DNA of 54,018 nt, from positions 1-54,018 of the forward strand of contig NW_021833931.1 of NCBI RefSeq assembly GCF_006345805.1, written 5' to 3'. Positions 1,510-45,993 of this stretch are shown in pieces. The notes under the pieces were generated by a model. That model ran no database searches. It was given only the letters and a program-made list of their open reading frames with translations, and was not told where the DNA came from. The position numbers were made by a program, and so were the translations under genes. Each line of letters opens with the position of its first letter. Position 1 is the stretch's first letter. This stretch comes from Octopus sinensis (taxonomy: Eukaryota).

Positions 1510-2126
1510 CACACCTTACATGCCCATATATATGACACCTCAGCATGGCGACAAATTTTAGGTTGGAGTGCATAATAAAAAAATGTACTTATTTATGCAT
1601 ATATGTGTAACAAATATATATTATATATTTACACACACATACATGCATAAACACATACATAAATGTGAATGAGTGTGCGCGTGTTTGTGTGTATGTGCGT
1701 GTGTGTGTATGTGCGTGTGTGTTTGTGTGTGTGTGTTTATGAACACTTACGTACTCATGCAACGAGAGGAAGAACGATTGCGAGACGATGGTGTTCTGTT
1801 TTTATGGCATCGATTATACAGCTCATAATAACTCGAAAGTTGGATATATGCCATGCATATATGGATATATCATCATCTGGATGAAACTTAGAAATTCACG
1901 CACATCTGCAACCGATGTTCACTTTCACAAGAACTGATGTACAAAGAACAACCAGCTGTTTTTATATGATGTCACTATAAATACTTTCATCCATTCATTT
2001 ATACATGCATGCAAATACATGCATACACACACACACGCACACACCTATGCATGTGCATACATATGTATGTGTATGTATGTATGTATGTATGTGCCTATGT
2101 AAGTATGTATATATATATATATATAC

Positions 2127-2509
2127 GCGAGAAAGAAGCAACAAGAATGGATAGGTTTTTAGTACAATCGTTTCATACAAGGACAGGCTTTATTAAATGT
2201 TGCAAAAATTACAGCATACAAACGCGTCCCGTACTCATCAGCTAAAATACATGTGAGTTCTCTAGAGAGTATTTTAGCTGATGAGTACGGGACGCGTTTG
2301 TATGCTGTAATTTTTGCAACATTTAATAAAGCCTGTCCTTGTATGAAACGATTGTACTAAAAACCTATCCATTCTTGTTGCTTCTTTCTCGCTTATAATC
2401 ACCCCACATTACTGTATTGTTAAAACAGTATAGTTTTTTTTGGTGCATCTAATTTAGGTACATATTCAAGTAAATTCATTTAAATTAACTTGAATCTTTA
2501 TTGCTTTTT
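2127..2509 (+). mobile_element. Small non-autonomous PLE-like element with a perfect 124-bp inverted duplication, inserted in (TA)n
   Basis: 2127-2250 is the exact reverse complement of 2269-2392 (18-bp spacer); unique tail to about 2509; TA tracts on both sides; contains a hammerhead motif. Confidence 0.7.
2272..2362 (+). ncRNA. Type I hammerhead ribozyme (predicted); identical copy on the minus strand at 2157-2247
   Basis: Stem I TTTTAG(2272-2277)/CTAAAA(2357-2362); CTGATGA(2278-2284); stem II GTACGGGAC(2285-2293)/GTCCTTGTAT(2335-2344) with AATAAA in its loop; GAAA(2345-2348); near-palindromic stem III ACGATTGT; GUA triplet ending at 2356. Confidence 0.75.
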
Positions 2510-2820
2510 GATATATATATATATATATATATTCTATCTATATATATATATATTTATTATATATATATGTATAATATATATATATATATATATATATTTA
2601 TCCTTATATATATATTTATATATATATATATATAAGTATATGCCTGTATATTTATATATATGTTTGTATATTACATATATTACAGATATGTTTGCATGAC
2701 ATACATTTATATTATATTATATTATATATCTATGCCTAAATCCATACACACGCATATATATATATATACACCATACACACACACACACACATACATATAC
2801 CTTATATATATATATAATAT

Positions 2821-4783: not shown

Positions 4784-5173
4784 GGAGGCGCAATGGCCCA
4801 GTGGTTAGAGCAGCGGACTCGCGGTCATAGGATCGCTGTTTCGATTCCCAGACCGGTCGTTGTGAGTGTTTATTGAGCAAAAATACCTAAAGCTCCACGA
4901 GGCTCCGGCAGGGGATGGTGGTGATCCCTGCTGTACTCTTTCACCACAACTTTCTCTCACTCTTACTTCCTGTTTCTGTTGTACCTGTATTTCAAAGGGC
5001 CGTCCTTGTCACTCTCTGTGTCACGCTGAATATCCCCGAGAATTACGTTAAGGGTACACGTGTCTGTGGAGTGCTCAGCCACTTACACGTTAATTTCACG
5101 AGCAGGCTGTTCCGTTGATTCGGATCAACCGGAACCCTCGTCGTCGTAAACGACGGAGTGTTTCAATCCATCC
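4784..5173 (+). mobile_element. Full-length tRNA-derived SINE family A
   Basis: tRNA-like head GGAGGCGCAATGGCCCAGTGGTTAG...GTTTCGATTCCC (A and B boxes); TSD ATTAACTGAAAAG(A/G)GT at 4768-4783 and 5174-5189; second copy at 26898-27281. Confidence 0.92.
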
Positions 5174-8170: not shown

Positions 8171-8695
8171 TTACAGACAGCTATTTGCAGCTTAGAAGTT
8201 GTTTTGGCGGCTAATCAGGTTTCGTTCTGTTTTTTTTTCTTTATGTAGATGTACCTGTTAACTTCCAGCTTAGATTTCAGGAAATGTATCGTAATAAACG
8301 TTTAACTAATTATCCCAATAATTAGACACGTTGCACGTAACTGAGTGCAGCGGAAAAAGTGACTGCATTTCATGAAGCAACGGAGAGACAGCGAATGTTA
8401 TGATGAAGGCAGAGCACGGACATTTTTGCAATGTAATACAAAATTGTAGATACGCAGATACATACAAGCATCTATTAGGAAGAAAGAGAGAGAGAGAGAG
8501 AAACAGAGAGACAGAGAGAGAAAGAAAGAAGGGTGAGTGAAGGGGTGTGTTGTCATGTATTCGTACATCAATACGTCTTCTTTGTATATACGTGTGCATT
8601 TGTGAGTGGGCGTGTGTGTGTGAGAGAGAGAGAGAGTGAATGAAAGTGAGTGAATGTGTGTTCTCATGTATATGTAAGTGGCAATCTCTCTCCCC

Positions 8696-8731
<36 letters not shown>

Positions 8732-8816
8732 TACATACATACATACATGTCCATTTCATATACACGTTCATACATCTTCCACTTTCTCCTCTCTTTCACT
8801 TTAAAAACAAAAGTAA

Positions 8817-8881
8817 ATAAAGCGATGCTCCAGAATGGCCGCAGTCAAATGACTGAAACAAGTAAAAGAGTAAAAGAGTAA
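8817..8881 (+). mobile_element. 3' tail fragment of SINE family C
   Basis: GCTCCAGAATGGCCGCAGTCAAATGACTGAAACAAGTAAAAGAGTAAAAGAG matches the end of the 46770-47184 copy. Confidence 0.75.
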
Positions 8882-9097
8882 ATATCAAAAATGTTTACGG
8901 AAGTTAACGAACAAAACCAGCTGATCGGGTGACTGTTCTCAAAGTCAAAGTGACAGTTCTGAGAGTCAAATCGAAAGATCAGCCCAATGGAATACCATTA
9001 CAAAACTTTTTTCGAGTGCATTCAACGTATCTCAGTTGCAAAAAAATTGGCTGCTATTTCTTGCACGCCCTGCTACCACGTAACATCTATTTGTGTT

Positions 9098-9329
9098 AAG
9101 GCGGCGAGATGGCAGAAATGGTAGCACGCCGGGCGAAATGCGTAGCCGTATTTCGTCTGCCGTTACGTTCTGAGTTCAAATTCCGCCGAGGTCGACTTTG
9201 CCTTTCATCCTTTCGGGGTCGATTAAATAAGTACCAGTTACGCACCGGGGTCGATATAATCGACTAATCCGTTTGTCTGTCCTTGGTTGTCCTCTCTGTG
9301 TTTAGCCCCTTGTGGGTAGTAAAGAAATG
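9098..9329 (+). mobile_element. Full-length SINE family B
   Basis: AAGGCGGCGAGATGGCAGAA head, B box GAGTTCAAATTCC, tail TAAAGAAAT; TSD TATTTGTG(T/A)TA at 9088-9098 and 9330-9340. Confidence 0.9.
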
Positions 9330-9883
9330 TATTTGTGATAACGGACCCGAAAAACCTGTTACCTGGTAGAAGGGCGTGCAAGAAATAAGAGCCAAATTTT
9401 GCTTTCTGGGGAAAGGAGCTGTTTACGCTTGGTTTCGATGTCACATTCGTTGAAAGCATGCGAAATAACCAGGAGAAGGAAAAAAAATCATGAAACAAAA
9501 CTCCGTTGTAGCGAAACTCAGACTTTCCAGGTAACCCATCGGGTCATGGGTAGTCTAGTCTAGTATAGACACACATACACACTCACACACACACACATGC
9601 ATATATACCGACATTTGCGCCTCTAATGAACAACCCAACTTTAGAATTTTCCCCTGTATAAATTTAGGGACAATGCAACTTATAATTAGCGCAAATAATA
9701 AGTTATCGCAAAATATATACTTCTTTTGAATGCTTCCCCCACAGATAACACTACTACAAGGATCTTAGAATAATACCCACGCAAATATTACAAACGATAG
9801 ATATATTAAAAACAGTCGCTACCCATGAATTTATTTAGAACAGTTCCTACCACTACTACTACAACCACAACACTTTCTAACTT

Positions 9884-10459
9884 CTTTCTAACTTCGTATA
9901 CTAGTAGAATATGTCATATAAAACATCTTTTACTCTTAGCGTTTTTGAGAAAAGTTTATGTTTAGGAAATTATTTCGTGTTAAACTTCACCTATTTCGGT
10001 AACTTTAACCAATCAATGACGTGTATCCAGCTGAATAAAATTACTACTATTGTTTGTCAGAAACTATCGGCAGTGTATATTTCATTTGTTACTGTTATTT
10101 ATGACATATTTCATCTCAGTTATGCTTTTAAAACCCTAACCCTAACCCTAAAACCCTAACTCTAACCCTAAAACCCCAACCCTAACCCTAAAACCCTAAC
10201 CCTAACCTAAAACCAGTACAAACGCACAAACGATGTCATAAATAACAGTGACAAACGAAATACACACCGCTGATAGTTGCTGTTGACAAACAATTGCAGT
10301 AATTTTATTCAGCTGAATACACGTCATTGATTGGTTGAAATTACCGAAATACGAGAACTGTAACACGAAATAACTTCGTAAACATAAACTTTTCTCAAAA
10401 ACGCTAAGAGTAAAAGGTGTTTTATATGACACATTCTACCACTACACGAAGTTTGAAAG
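9884..10459. mobile_element. Fold-back/MITE-like element: about 225-bp inverted arms around a telomere-like (CCCTAA)n core
   Basis: 9884-10107 is the imperfect reverse complement of 10233-10459 (also visible as paralogous ORFs 9911+ and 10432-); CCCTAA/AAACCCTA array at about 10129-10214. Confidence 0.85.
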
Positions 10460-10491
10460 TATTTAGTTACAAAAAATTATATATATATATA

Positions 10492-22339: not shown

Positions 22340-22915
22340 CTACGGAAACATGCACAGGAGCAAACAATCATGCAACCATACACACAGAGATGCATACACA
22401 TAAACACAGAGATGCACATGTACACTAACACACAGTGAGAAGGCGTATTAGAGACATGGATAGAGATACGAGGAAGAGAGAGAAAGAGAGATGTGAATGC
22501 AAACACACACAACACATAAATCGTTAACTGAATAAATAAGTACACAAATAACTAAATAAATAAATAAATACATTTGTAAATAAATAGATTATGATGAAAG
22601 ATAGAGGGAAACATGTCATGCAATGCAAGCTTCAGAAATAATCAGAGAGAGAGAGAGAGAGAAATGGTGGACGTGAACGAGTACTGGATGTGGTGGGGGA
22701 GACTGTATGAAGTAGAATGGTTGATGCCCTTAGACTTTGATCACTCACAGCTGTGACAGGAATCAGATCTATCGGTACTGAATCACCTCGCATATAATGC
22801 TGCTTCTGGCTTACGTCAAACTAGATTTTATTGAACGCGGGGTCCGTAGCGGTAATGGAAGTTTTGCAAGAGGAAGGTAAGCCAGAAAGGAAAGCTACGA
22901 GGCCTATGTGTAGAG

Positions 22916-22954
<39 letters not shown>

Positions 22955-22967
22955 ACAGCAGCAGCAT

Positions 22968-22999
<32 letters not shown>

Positions 23000-23646
23000 T
23001 TGATGGTGGTGGGGTTGGGTGCTGTTGGTGCTGGTGGTGACGATGGTGGTGATGGTGGTAGTGATGGTGTTGGTGGTACAGAATCGGCAACATCGACAGC
23101 AGCAACGGCAGCAGTGGTGGTGGTGGCGACGGTGGCTGCAGAGCGGTGGAGGGGCGGCAGCGGCAGCGACGACGGGGGTGGCGACGGCAGGGTCTATGGT
23201 GGTGGTGGTGGTAGTGGTGGTCGTTGTCAGCGGCGATGGTGGCGGCGGCGTCAGCGGCAGTGGAAGCTGCGGTAGTAGTCGTGGCGGCATTGATGGCGGC
23301 GGCAGAAGATATACTCCATAAACATTGCCCCTACCAGACCTTTGGTAGGCCAACTAAGAATATTCAGATTATAACTGAGGAAAACAACAAAAAACCATTC
23401 ACTAGTTTGGGCAAATGTAAAATATTGATTACGGAAATTTTCACGAACATTCCTTGAAAAATCATCTGGCAAATGTCTTTCGCAGATCGAGCGAGCGCCT
23501 AGAAGCCACCAGCAAAATGGCACGTATGGCATTGCGGCGATGATCGTGGCAGCTGTGGTCTTCTCGCGGCGGTGTTTCTAATTGTGATGGCGGTGGACGT
23601 TGTTATATGTTTTGGATGACGGTGGATGCCGATGCTGGTGGTCGGG

Positions 23647-23698
<52 letters not shown>

Positions 23699-25576
23699 CA
23701 GCAGCAGCAGCAGCATCAGCAGCAGAGGCGGAGGAGGCGGCGGAGGCGGTGGAGGCAGCGGAGGCGGTAGAGACGGTGGTGGCGGCGGCGGCGGCGGCGG
23801 CGGTGGTGGTAATGGTAGTAGTAGTGGTGGTGGTGGTAGTAATGACAACAACAACAACAATAATAGTAATAGTATTGGTGGTGGTGATAGTAGTAGTAGT
23901 AGTAGTAGTAGTAGCTGTTGTTGACTTAATTGGGTTTTTAGAGATAGTAACGGCGTTAAGTCGTATCGGTAAGAACGCTTCTTGCTTAGAATATTATGGC
24001 GGGGCGATGTCAATGAAGATAGATTGTTTATGAAGATGGCAATAAAAACGGTATAAATGATGATGGATATATGATGGTGGCGGTGATAACATGACGAGAA
24101 TAGTGGTGGTGGTGGTGGTGGTGGTGTTGATGTTACCCCCCCCCATATTTGTCATCTGAAGCTGATGTTGATGATTTGAAATATTCACTGACTGGATGAA
24201 AACTGACAGTAATTGGATGTATTATCAAGGAGATAGTTGTTTGTCATTTAGGCGACAGTAGTAGTAGTAGTAGTAGTAGTAGTAGTTAGTAGTAGTAGTA
24301 GTAGTATTAGTAGTAGTAGTATTGATGGTGGTGGGGTTGGGTGCTGTTGGTGCTGGTGGTGACGATGGTGGTGATGGTGGTAGTGATGGTGTTGGTGGTA
24401 CAGAATCGGCAACATCGACAGCAGCAACGGCAGCAGTGGTGGTGGTGGCGACGGTGGCTGCAGAGCGGTGGAGGGGCGGCAGCGGCAGCGACGACGGGGG
24501 TGGCGACGGCAGGGTCTATGGTGGTGGTGGTGGTAGTGGTGGTCGTTGTCAGCGGCGATGGTGGCGGCGGCGTCAGCGGCAGTGGAAGCTGCGGTAGTAG
24601 TCGTGGCGGCATTGATGGCGGCGGCAGAAGATATACTCCATAAACATTGCCCCTACCAGACCTTTGGTAGGCCAACTAAGAATATTCAGATTATAACTGA
24701 GGAAAACAACAAAAAACCATTCACTAGTTTGGGCAAATGTAAAATATTGATTACGGAAATTTTCACGAACATTCCTTGAAAAATCATCTGGCAAATGTCT
24801 TTCGCAGATCGAGCGAGCGCCTAGAAGCCACCAGCAAAATGGCACGTATGGCATTGCGGCGATGATCGTGGTAGCTGTGGTCTTCTCGCGGCGGTGTTTC
24901 TAATTGTGATGGCGGTGGACGTTGTTATATGTTTTGGATGACGGTGGATGCCGATGCTGGTGGTCGGGGTAGTAGTAGTAGTAGTAGTAGTAGTATAGTA
25001 GTAGTAGTAGTAGTAGTATAGTAGTAGTAGTAGCAGCAGCAGCAGCAGCATCAGCAGCAGAGGCGGAGGAGGCGGCGGAGGCGGTGGAGGCAGCGGAGGC
25101 GGTAGAGACGGTGGTGGCGGCGGCGGTGGTGGTAATGGTAGTAGTAGTGGTGGTGGTGGTAGTAATGACAACAACAACAACAATAATAGTAATAGTATTG
25201 GTGGTGGTGATAGTAGTAGTAGTAGTAGTAGTAGCTGTTGTTGACTTAATTGGGTTTTTAGAGATAGTAACGGCGTTAAGTCGTATCGGTAAGAACGCTT
25301 CTTGCTTAGAATATTATGGCGGGGCGATGTCAATGAAGATAGATTGTTTATGAAGATGGCAATAAAAACGGTATAAATGATGATGGATATATGATGGTGG
25401 CGGTGATAACATGACGAGAATAGTGGTGGTGGTGGTGGTGGTGGTGTTGATGTTACCCCCCCCCATATTTGTCATCTGAAGTTGATGTTGATGATTTGAA
25501 ATATTCACTGACTGGATGAAAACTGACAGTAATTGGATGTATTATCAAGGAGATAGTTGTTTGTCATTTAGGCGAC

Positions 25577-26897: not shown

Positions 26898-27281
26898 GTG
26901 GAAGCACTCCGTCGGTTACGACGATGAGGGTTCCGGTTGATCCGAATCAACGGAACAGCCTGCTCGTGAAATTAACGTGTATGTGGCTGAGCACTCCCCA
27001 GACACGTGTACCCTTAACGTAGTTCTCGGGGATATTCAGCGTGACACAGAGAGTGACAAGGCCGGCCCTTTGAAATACAGATACAACAGAAACAGAAAGT
27101 AAGAGTGAGAGAAAGTTGTGGTGAAAGGGTAAAGCAGGGATCACCACCATCCCCTGCCGGATCCTCGTGGAGCTTTAGGTGTTTTCGCTCAATAAACACT
27201 CACAACGCCCGGTCTGGGAATCGAAACCGCGATCCTATGACCGCGAGTCCACTGCCCTAAACACTGGGCCATTGCGCCTCC
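26898..27281 (-). mobile_element. Full-length SINE family A
   Basis: Reverse complement of 4784-5173; TSD TGATGATCAATT at 26886-26897 and 27282-27293. Confidence 0.92.
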
Positions 27282-37876: not shown

Positions 37877-38174
37877 TAATATATAATGTTTGTATAATTA
37901 ATATTAATATATACTGATGAGACTGGCCTTAGTAATATATATTTTTTACTGAAATTAGTCATTCCTTTCGAGAATTTAACAGTAATTAGTGGTTTGAGAT
38001 TTCTACTGCTCTTTCTAGCACAAGGCTTTCCTATTTGGAAGCCTCTTATGTGTTTTAATGTACACGATATTTTTTATATGTATGTATGTATGATATATAT
38101 ATATATATATCTATACAATATATATATATGTAAGTGTATGTACTTATGTATGTATATATATGTATATATATATG

Positions 38175-43096: not shown

Positions 43097-43567
43097 TTAA
43101 TTGTTTGTCGTAGACCCGTTAAGAAGTGGCTTGTATTTTGTAATAAAGAGATTTTCTTTACTCATTCGTTGTCTCGAGGTTGTATCGTCCCTAAATTGGT
43201 AGAGGGGGAAAATCCTGAAGTTTGGTGTTTTTTTGTTGGCGCAAGTATCTATGTGTTGGCTAAAAGCTATTTTTCTGTTTTGGGGAATTTTTATCTGGAA
43301 TCTGTGCAGGGCCATTCGTTTACGCAAACCATTTTTTGTTTGGCCTATGTACTGCTCTTGACACCCGGAGCAGGTTAGTGAGTATATTAGGTTCTCCGAA
43401 GCACATGTGAAGTTGCTTTTCACTGTAAACCGTTGTCCCTGTTTGAAGGAGAACTCTGATCCCTCAATTAGATAGTCGCATATCCCGCAATTGGGTCTTC
43501 CACATTTTTTTACTGTCGGCTTCTGTGTTGAAGAGTGAATTCGGGCTTGTGTTAGGAGACTTTTCAT
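43097..43567 (-). pseudogene. GIY-YIG endonuclease portion of the PLE ORF (open segment)
   Basis: LIY-x10-YIG, LRKRMALH, KENLFITKYKPLLN; upstream Cys-rich linker. Confidence 0.92.
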
Positions 43568-45993
43568 GGATCTAGGCTGTCTTTTGCTTTTTATGATCGT
43601 GTGTGTTTGGAGGATTGTGTCATCTGTGGTCTTTTTTTAGGAGGGGTGGTTGTGGAGGATGGTGTCGAAGGCTTCGTTACTGAGAGGGTTGTGTGTGGAG
43701 ATGTATGGTAAGGCTTTTGGTTGTAAGTTTTTCTTTGATTTGGGATGTCTCAGTTCCTTGATGTTAAGTTGAAGGGCACGTTGAATGCACTTGTCAATAA
43801 GTGAAGGTGGATAGTTCCTGGTGATAAGGGTATCTTTTAGTTTTTGTAGTCGTGTGTCTCTGGTGTTTGCGTTAGAGACTATAGTGCATATCCTTTTTGC
43901 TATAGATTGAAGGGGATATTCATCCTGGTGTGTCTGGGGTGGCATGAATTGAATGGAAGATATTGCTTAGAGTCTGTAGGCTTATAGTATATGTGTTTCT
44001 ATTATATTATTAGCTTTCTTAATGAGGATATCGAGGAAGGGGAGTTGTTGCTGGCTATATTCCATCGTGAATTGGATGTTTACGTCCAGTCCGTTTAAAA
44101 TTTCCTGGAATTCTATGAGTTTTTCTATATTTTTATGCCAAAGGATGAAACAGTCATCTAGATATCTCTTCCAGTTGTTTTCTATGTAGATGAAGAAAGG
44201 GCTGCCATATCTTTCTAGAACCTTACGATACAGACTGATCTCTAGGTATCCTATGACTAGGTTGGCAAAGGAGGGGGCCATTCGTGTACCCATCGCAGTC
44301 CCCGATTTTTGTCGGTAGAAGTGTCATTGAAGGCGAAGAAGTTATTTTCCAGGATGAATTAACCCCTTCTATCACAAATTCTTTTTTGATGCGGTGTGGC
44401 AGTTCGTTGGCGTGATTCTCTAGCCAGAATTGGATTGCCTCTAGTCCTAGGTTGTGGGGGATATTGGAGTAGAGGTTGACTACATCGAAGGATACCAGTA
44501 TGGTGTTTTTGTTTATAGTATTCGGTGGTGATTGAGCATATCTAAGTCGTCCCTTATATAGCTTTTGACATGTTTGAGGAGTGGTTTTAACAGGGTGTCT
44601 AAAAAGTTACTGAGGCGGTGGGTTTCGCATGCGGGACCCTGCTATTATGGGTCTCAATTGAGGTCATTAGGATTAGGGACTTTAATTATTTTGTCTGTAG
44701 CTATCTTGCATGCGTTGCTTATTTTTTCACTTTTGTGGATCTTAGGTATACCGTAGAATTGGCTAGTTTTACTTGTGAAATTGGTCATATAATCATATTC
44801 TTTGTCGGTGAGCCCTGCTTTGTATGGGTTTAATATGGATTTTAGTTCCCTCATTATTTTTTGTTGGCTGTAGTTTTGTGCCTTTTCATAGTATGTTGTG
44901 TCTTCCAGCATAGAAAGTACGAAAGTTATGTAAAACGTCGTATCCATTAAGACAACAGCACTCCCTTTATCGGCCTCTTTGATTGTTATTGTTTTTTATC
45001 TTGTTAATTTGTTCAACTCAGCCCATTCTTTTTTGCTGAAGTTTGGTTTGTGTTTTTGTTTGTGCATATGTTGATATGGGTAATTAGATATGTGGTCACA
45101 GAAATCATCAGGTGTTTTGTTCTTACCTTTCGAGGGGGTGTAGTTACTCCTATTTCTGGCTAACGATTCGTCCTCGTTGTATTTATCGTATAGCTCCTCA
45201 GTAAGTCTTAATTTTCTGCAGAATTCTGCGATGTCTTCTTTCATTTCGTTGTAGTTGGGGTGTTGTGGGGTGGGTGTAAACTTGAGTCCTTTGGAAAATA
45301 TGTTTATTTGGTTTGCTGTTAGTTTCTTGTGAGTTAGATTGATAATTTTTATTACTTTTGGTTCCTCCTGCTTGTTTGGGTGCTATCTTGTGTCTCTGTG
45401 TTTGCGTATTGGGTCTAAAAAGAATGCGGTGGTTGGGACGGTAGCTATTATATAGTTTTGTCTTTGTTGATGTGGGGTCTCCTGTTGTGATTTATGGTGT
45501 GTGTTCTTGGAGCAGTATTGAGGAGAGCATCCCGATATCCCATATTCGGGTGTGGTGTTCTAGGAGGCCTTCGTTGGTAATCATTGTAAGTGGAGTGGGT
45601 TTGTTGTGCATGGTTGTTTAACCGGTTTATGGGGCGGAGATTTCGTTAGTAACTCTTTTGGGTGGGGATAAGGTTGCAGTGTCTATGCTGTGGGTGTTGA
45701 TTTATCCTTTCTCTGCTTGAAGTGGGGGTATTCCTGATATTGTAACGCTGGCTGCTTACAGAGTTAGGGTTAGGCCCTGTATTCTTTTTTTGACAGTAGT
45801 GAAGGTTCCGATTTTTAGACAGGTGTGTATCGGTGTTTGGGTGTTGTTTTGGTTTTCTTATTTTCTGGAAAGGGTTGTTGGAGGCGTGCTCTGTTTGAAA
45901 GACGGCTTCATAGTCTGAGAACCAAATGGCGTTTTTCTCCCAGCGTTGGAGAGATTTTAGTTATATATTTTAGATATATATATAGATTTTATT

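What the first reader, a model, noticed from the sequence alone, without database searches (positions are those of the whole stretch)
2127..2392. Perfect 124-bp inverted repeat encoding the same hammerhead on both strands
Seen: zero mismatches between the arms, an 18-bp spacer, and a full hammerhead fold in each arm with a polyA signal inside the stem II loop. Known: inverted partial pseudo-LTRs arise during PLE insertion. Inference: very recent insertion. A read-through transcript in either direction makes the antisense arm first, so a 124-bp dsRNA should sequester the ribozyme (self-silencing; ADAR/Dicer substrate), while a transcript starting inside the element could cleave. The DNA could also extrude a cruciform.
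Basis: partly seen in the sequence, partly recalled or inferred. Interest (0 to 1): 0.75.

Follow-up and report, generated by a model that had tools for sequence, protein, structure and literature searches.

The report
Head-to-head Hydra-type Penelope retroelement stub
The mirror-image DNA is one very short copy among hundreds left by a young Penelope-type jumping gene; each mirror-image copy examined has one short end and one tailed end, which likely means the enzyme copied the element twice, once from each cut DNA strand, and the predicted self-cutting RNA motif in each arm is likely a passenger.

Summary
The 124-bp inverted repeat is real: 0 mismatches, 18-nt spacer. It is not a special locus. 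It is part of a 385-bp insertion (2126-2510, including an unnoticed 118-nt one-sided tail) in (TA)n, from a young Hydra-clade Penelope-like family (unit about 4.6 kb; at least 1,017 exact 23-mer hits). All 55 divergent pairs examined, and 22 of 22 in sister subfamilies, have one arm ending at +124 and the other at about +243. Either arm may be the longer, and arms share subfamily variants (42 of 45 loci). This best fits two target-primed cDNAs joined head to head. Zero substitutions is the norm (27 of 45 loci), so it does not single this copy out as very recent. The hammerhead covaries across six families, but its stem III is 2 bp with a palindromic loop (dimer type); the isolated arm is predicted to cleave poorly, so 'self-silencing' is probably moot. 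Inverted PLE copies with hammerheads on both strands and a one-sided tail are in print. The scan found this before on other DNA of this genome. Only the strict end asymmetry and the shared variants add mechanistic value.

The parts
2108..2125 (.). (TA)n target, left side
   Evidence: sequence; (TA)n flanks at all 17 loci printed
2126..2126 (-). extra base at the short outer end (G in element sense; the element itself has T here)
   Evidence: 57 of 74 short ends in subfamilies A/B carry G
2127..2250 (-). short-ended arm: element positions +1..+124 inverted, with hammerhead 2155-2250 (predicted cut 3' of position 2163 on the minus strand)
2251..2266 (-). continuation of the left arm, 16 nt of upstream pLTR
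   Evidence: blastn to natural copy L063; family contigs continue past 2266 with other letters
2259..2268 (.). head-to-head junction: 10-bp palindrome; 2267-2268 are two inserted bases that complete it
   Evidence: junction 23-mer occurs once in the genome
2269..2392 (+). tail-bearing arm, element positions +1..+124
2269..2364 (+). type I hammerhead motif: stem I 2269-2277/2357-2364, core 2278-2284 and 2345-2348, long stem II 2285-2344, 2-bp stem III 2348-2355 with palindromic loop, predicted cut after A2356
2325..2330 (+). AATAAA inside extended stem II; role unproven
   Evidence: kept in subfamilies A-C (8 of 8 rows), absent in three distant families; one of 19 positions with this hexamer per unit
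2393..2510 (+). 118-nt one-sided tail (5' leader of the next unit), two predicted hairpins
   Evidence: same sequence precedes the ORF in L063/L064
2511..2600 (.). (TA)n-rich target, right side

Best explanation
This is a heavily 5'-truncated, head-to-head insertion of a Hydra-clade Penelope-like retroelement in a TA repeat, likely made by two target-primed cDNAs that likely started at two fixed sites (+124 and about +243) of uncleaved element RNA from one source and were then likely joined at their unfinished ends. Shown: family, architecture, strict one-short/one-tailed ends, either arm longer, shared variants, microhomology-type junctions, single-armed copies ending at either site. Inferred: nicking of both (TA)n strands by the GIY-YIG endonuclease, two priming events (perhaps by an RT dimer), one RNA molecule as template. 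The perfect palindrome and the two opposite hammerheads are by-products; a read-through RNA would form a 124-bp duplex, but the ribozyme is predicted to be nearly inactive as a monomer anyway.
For: Family: 42 matches at 98-100% among 40 scored of 509 candidates; 1,008 + 9 exact 23-mers; 1,450 further hammerheads with a sister stem III. Full structure in L063: inverted pLTR, pLTR, RT...GIY-YIG ORF, pLTR + tail, unit 4,590 nt. Ends: 55 of 55 divergent pairs short + tailed, 0 short-short, 0 long-long; 22 of 22 in subfamilies B and C. Of 52 junctions, short arm reaches further 5' in 23, tail arm in 17, within 12 nt in 12; 4 tail arms start downstream of +100, one opposite a 3.4-kb short arm. 33 of 52 junctions overlap by 1 nt or more. 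Arms within a locus differ by 0.58 substitutions against 2.25 between loci, 0 of 3,000 permutations as low; the window's rare two-site variant is in both arms at 5 of 5 loci. Single-armed copies end at either site. No tail arm starts at the predicted cut (0 of 54), and four over-unit-length arms run through the upstream hammerhead. PMC11167929 shows in vitro, for a Poseidon PLE, cleavage and extension of both strands, two internal RT start sites bounding the tail, a predicted dimer, and no need for hammerhead cleavage.
Against: 12 of 52 junctions are symmetric fold-backs (null mean 1.2, 0 of 20,000 permutations), and this locus has a palindromic junction, as self-priming predicts. Shared variants show one source element or cell, not one molecule; 3 of 45 loci are discordant at diagnostic sites. 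PMC11167929 found no difference in start site between strands, so strict pairing is not explained by it. Loci were partly picked as visible pairs (not by end type). The extra G at the short end is unexplained. No biochemistry was done.
Confidence: 0.6

Rival explanations
1. One cDNA folds back and self-primes (or an antisense template self-primes), giving a symmetric palindrome; the outer asymmetry comes from endonuclease resolution or annealing at +124, and later centre deletions make either arm longer.
For: 12 of 52 symmetric junctions; palindrome at this junction; shared variants; proposed in PMC3846280 (self-priming on antisense template) and PMC8557442 (tail from EN-mediated resolution).
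Against: Needs one-sided deletions of up to 3.4 kb that leave 31-44 nt tail arms (L066, L092, L093); single-armed copies end precisely at the short site; two start sites were seen directly in vitro for another PLE (PMC11167929).
Confidence: 0.22
2. Twin priming on two separate RNA molecules from the same source locus, one per RT subunit, possibly held together by the palindromic stem III (dimeric hammerhead).
For: Stem III loop stays palindromic in all 11 aligned rows; intermolecular duplex -5.8 kcal/mol against +2.4 for the monomer hairpin; 3 of 45 loci have discordant arms.
Against: Does not by itself give strict short + tailed pairing or the excess of equal 5' breakpoints.
Confidence: 0.12
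3. One reading: a selected self-silencing device in which the antisense arm switches off an otherwise active ribozyme and feeds ADAR or Dicer.
For: Full hairpin -222 kcal/mol; antisense arm is transcribed first on either strand.
Against: The layout recurs at hundreds of loci with arbitrary spacers (18 nt to over 6 kb); monomer stem III probability about 0.01; only 16 nt of upstream pLTR remain; flanks are microsatellite-rich with no credible host ORF in the window.
Confidence: 0.04
4. Assembly or library fold-back artefact at this locus.
For: Unplaced 54-kb contig with the repeat 2 kb from its start; the two smallest spacers (18, 25 nt) are both on small contigs.
Against: Distinct single-copy flanks on both sides; asymmetric ends identical to 54 other loci, most on chromosome-scale contigs; a read fold-back would mirror flanks too.
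Confidence: 0.02

Closest known systems
Hydra clade of C-terminal EN+ Penelope-like elements (Craig et al. 2021, PMC8557442; seen: passages, sections 11 and 15, supplement part 2 of 59 and two supplement searches), e.g. Penelope-13_HM, Hydra-1_Obim
   Same: RWK, DKT, CxCX5C, CxxC/CxH motifs, no CCHH, (TA)n target, type I hammerhead near the 3' end. Penelope-13_HM is listed with a 5'-truncated inverted copy and the same hammerhead on both strands.
   Different: Unit 4.6 kb against 1.1-3.0 kb listed; Asn-rich inserts and long 3' UTR; stem II region of 60 nt against loops of 3-10 nt; tail 118 nt against the 30-40 bp described for PLEs; four short motifs of this family are not in the held supplement.
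Minimal and dimer-type PLE hammerheads (Cervera and De la Pena 2014, PMC4209133; seen: parts 1-2 of 4)
   Same: Type I, short palindromic stem III; the paper already reports pairs about 100-700 bp apart on opposite strands and no or low monomer cleavage.
   Different: G-U rather than G-C at 10.1-11.1 in this subfamily; much longer stem II.
Poseidon PAc of Anolis (Frangieh et al. 2024, PMC11167929; seen: parts 1-2 of 4)
   Same: Two fixed ends bounding a tail; AT-rich target; hammerhead cleavage apparently not needed for insertion.
   Different: Other clade; sites about 118 nt apart; here both sites abut TATA-like sequence; the parts I read do not link the two sites to the two arms of inverted insertions.
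Inverted pLTR structures of Adineta vaga Penelope (PMC3846280; seen: passages) and L1 twin priming (recalled)
   Same: Head-to-head arms, palindromic junctions, tail on one inverted pLTR, Asn-rich ORF inserts.
   Different: In L1 the inverted piece lies upstream of the direct piece in the RNA (recalled); here both arms are 3'-anchored copies of the same region.

Membership tests
EN+ Penelope-like elements | Single ORF region with RT and C-terminal GIY-YIG endonuclease | tested here: met
   RT motifs (FDINSYY, MGSSDSAE, LYRDD) and VIYKC...YIG in natural copies, as separate open pieces because the copies have frameshifts; RVT_1 only E = 0.005, below cut-off; 158 homologues, intact ones of 700-800 aa with both domains
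EN+ Penelope-like elements | Partial tandem/inverted pLTRs with one-sided tail | tested here: met
   L063, L064, L065; 55 of 55 pairs
Hydra clade | RWK motif and DKT in place of DKG | tested here: met
   RRIRWK and ADKT in L064; DKT invariant in 7 of 7 rows
Hydra clade | CxCX5C linker; CxxC and CxH around conserved E and N; no CCHH | tested here: met
   CKCRIKSKC, CQLC...E...N...CVH, one Cys in the GIY-YIG core
Hydra clade | (TA)n target | tested here: met
Hydra clade | Generally short (<3 kb); descriptive, not diagnostic | tested here: not met
   unit 4,590 nt
Hydra clade | RT phylogeny with published Hydra sequences | not tested
   no named reference sequences were available as tool output
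Neptune clade (first considered) | CX2-5CxxC linker and CCHH motif | tested here: not met
   against PMC8557442 section 11
Type I hammerhead ribozyme | Conserved core with three stems that covary | tested here: met
   core invariant in 11 rows from six families; 96.6% of cells paired, 5 of 8 pairs changed on both sides, 1 of 500 shuffles; stem III never varies; 3 of the 11 rows supply most of the diversity
Type I hammerhead ribozyme | Self-cleavage | not testable with these tools
   folding predicts a weak monomer; no breakpoint at the cut site
Non-LTR retrozymes | Non-coding tandem monomers of a few hundred nt (recalled; abstract of 10.64898/2026.07.22.740005) | tested here: not met
   the repeat is the end of a 4.6-kb coding element; direct repeats are one unit apart
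MITE / DIRS (true terminal inverted repeats) | Fixed-length terminal repeats on a fixed master structure | tested here: not met
   arm lengths vary from 31 nt to 3.7 kb and either may be longer

The most novel reading that the evidence does not exclude
PLE inverted repeats are made by an asymmetric twin-priming reaction: an RT-endonuclease dimer nicks both (TA)n strands, adds a C to each primer, and copies one uncleaved RNA from two obligatorily different sites (+124 and +243), the second cDNA displacing the first. This would explain the one-sided tail, the head-to-head joint and the shared variants in one mechanism, distinct from L1 twin priming.
Probability: 0.35. Interest if true: 0.65.

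Novelty: new member of a known kind. Interest (0 to 1): 0.33.

Why it matters
The locus itself is ordinary. The family matters modestly: PMC8557442 names the origin of PLE tandem/inverted structures as open, and a young family with hundreds of near-identical insertions gives exact predicted start sites, a first added base and an arm-pairing rule that can be tested in the existing in vitro PLE assay. It also supplies hundreds of potential long-dsRNA loci for editing and small-RNA surveys in this animal.

Tried and rejected
Rfam: no hammerhead hit among the rows shown for the window (150 of 202) or for five family loci; miRNA hits over the junction are generic hairpin matches. Pfam missed the endonuclease and gave only a sub-threshold RT hit; the endonuclease-region homologue search gave 0 of 88; PDB gave one maturase at E = 0.69. 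Public runs: no RNA holder listed. No listed contig bridges the window's junction in the runs laid (all contigs, tables cut), so presence in reads and polymorphism stay open. No second haplotype with an empty site is in the assembly. An apparent fixed 5' end at 2.6 kb was an artefact of the reference copy. I first read the linker as Neptune-like; section 11 of PMC8557442 corrected this to Hydra. A mis-indexed stem II and an off-by-one comparison were redone; the redo could not tell which pLTR templated the inverted arm of L063. A cap-templated C was considered for the extra outer base and rejected on strand logic. Rows dropped: of 55 pairs, 1 lacked a mappable short arm (54), 2 more had gaps over 500 nt (52), and 45 had both arms covering at least 110 of 124 nt. 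Literature searches for twin priming in PLEs (with 16 and 56) listed no paper that, in what I read, states the strict pairing; subscription papers and bioRxiv supplements were not searchable.

Full report
Observation. The arms 2127-2250 and 2269-2392 are exact reverse complements with an 18-nt spacer and no extension either way. The window is a whole 54-kb contig of a 2.7-Gb genome, rich in microsatellites. A cephalopod host is my inference: the best-scoring named homologue is from Argonauta hians at 43% identity.

What it belongs to. The arm has 42 matches at 98-100% among the 40 candidates scored of 509. An exact 23-mer of the majority variant occurs 1,008 times and the window's variant 9 times. 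A sister stem III pattern gives 1,450 more. On contig C1, 69 exact hits form 47 loci: 19 divergent pairs, 0 convergent, 3 direct, 25 single. Of 14 such singles inspected, 8 had a truncated or mismatched partner. By extrapolation there are roughly 500 twin loci in this subfamily (estimate). L063 shows the full layout: (TA)n, inverted truncated pLTR, pLTR, RT and GIY-YIG ORF, 3' UTR, pLTR with tail, (TA)n; unit 4,590 nt. The ORF pieces carry RWK, DKT, CxCX5C, CxxC and CxH and lack CCHH, the diagnostic set of the Hydra clade. The unit is longer than the listed Hydra families, and no tree was built.

Anatomy of this copy. Taking 2269 as +1, the left arm covers -15..+124 inverted and the right arm +1..+242. 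It has the smallest spacer between complete 124-nt cores in my sample; a sister locus with other flanks has 25 nt. Both flanks are single-copy and the junction is unique.

Family-level rules. All 55 divergent pairs have one short and one tailed end, as do 22 of 22 in two sister subfamilies, one about 72% identical. Queries lay inside the shared core, so selection did not depend on end type. Among 52 clean junctions the short arm reaches further 5' in 23, the tail arm in 17, and 12 are symmetric within 12 nt against 1.2 expected; 33 show an overlap of at least 1 nt. Arms of one locus differ by 0.58 substitutions per 124 nt against 2.25 between loci; 27 of 45 have none and 19 are perfect; diagnostic sites agree in 42 of 45; the rare window variant is in both arms at 5 of 5 loci. 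Single-armed copies end at either site. Short ends carry G in 57 of 74 cases where the element has T, and tail ends mostly end in G too; this is unexplained.

Mechanism. A simple fold-back of one cDNA cannot give both cases: a tailed first strand cannot template a longer short arm, and a short first strand cannot supply the tail. Two primings from opposite target strands can. This agrees with the in vitro behaviour of a Poseidon PLE: both strands cut and extended, two internal starts bounding the tail, a predicted dimer. One source is shown by shared variants; one molecule is only inferred from strict pairing and the excess of equal breakpoints. Fold-back followed by centre deletion remains a real rival, and self-priming was proposed in print.

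The ribozyme. The core is intact, the predicted cut follows A2356, and stems I and II covary across six families. Stem III is 2 bp with a self-complementary loop: +2.4 kcal/mol as a monomer hairpin, -5.8 as an intermolecular duplex; the hammerhead fold lies 3.9 kcal/mol above the MFE. Such motifs were reported inactive or weak alone or protein-assisted and dispensable for insertion. No tail arm begins at the cut site (0 of 54), and four over-unit-length arms cross the upstream hammerhead, so the copied RNA was uncleaved there or religated. AATAAA is kept in three close subfamilies, absent in three distant families, and frequent in the unit; no copy printed ends in poly(A). Read-through would indeed form a -222 kcal/mol hairpin, but that follows from the insertion geometry, and transcription of the locus is not shown.

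Age. The family is young. Perfect arms are its norm, and this copy's tail has one private substitution (1 of 54) and one private deletion, which may be mutation or assembly error. 'Very recent' cannot be claimed for this copy in particular.

Prior knowledge. Inverted truncated copies with a one-sided tail, hammerhead pairs on opposite strands and a Hydra element with the same hammerhead on both strands are published. I found no statement of strict short/tailed pairing or arm concordance, within the library's limits. Earlier notes of this scan reached the same reading on other DNA of this genome; my reading was written down before I saw them, and they are not independent support.

Verdict. Real, explained, a new family of a known clade; interest 0.33, carried by the mechanistic footprint and not by the locus.

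Noticed in passing
family-wide; window 2126 and 2510: Both outer ends usually read G then TATATA; at the short end the G is not in the element (57 of 74). Both ends lie just downstream of a shared TTGCT motif and just upstream of a TATA-like stretch, in two subfamilies.
   Followed up: partly
L041, L054, L075, L063, L060, L076 and others, element positions -147 to -96: Cluster of 5' breakpoints and symmetric fold-backs in a stretch of short palindromes; may mark a transcription start or RT stall.
   Followed up: partly
window 43097-43636 (-): 179-aa open piece of a different PLE endonuclease with a CxxxxCxxC linker and LIY...YIG core (Neptune- or Naiad-like, by motif only).
   Followed up: no
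window 9877-10466: 183-bp inverted repeat at 90% around a (TAACCC)n-like telomeric array at 10129-10214; MITE-like.
   Followed up: no
window 37914-37955: CTGATGA...GAAA directly after a TA run; possibly a decayed hammerhead of another family.
   Followed up: no
window about 22900-25200: Direct duplication with period about 1,322 nt of a trinucleotide-rich block.
   Followed up: no
window 4784-5164 and 26901-27281: 381-nt interspersed repeat in opposite orientations, 95% alike, SINE-like.
   Followed up: no
L133:1553-1665, L134:1507-1601, L135:1541-1641: Three more hammerhead families share the CGATCG stem III with unrelated long stem II sequences.
   Followed up: partly
L067:1-839 and 8233-9587: The same family junction occurs twice 8.7 kb apart: local duplication or misassembly.
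   Followed up: no
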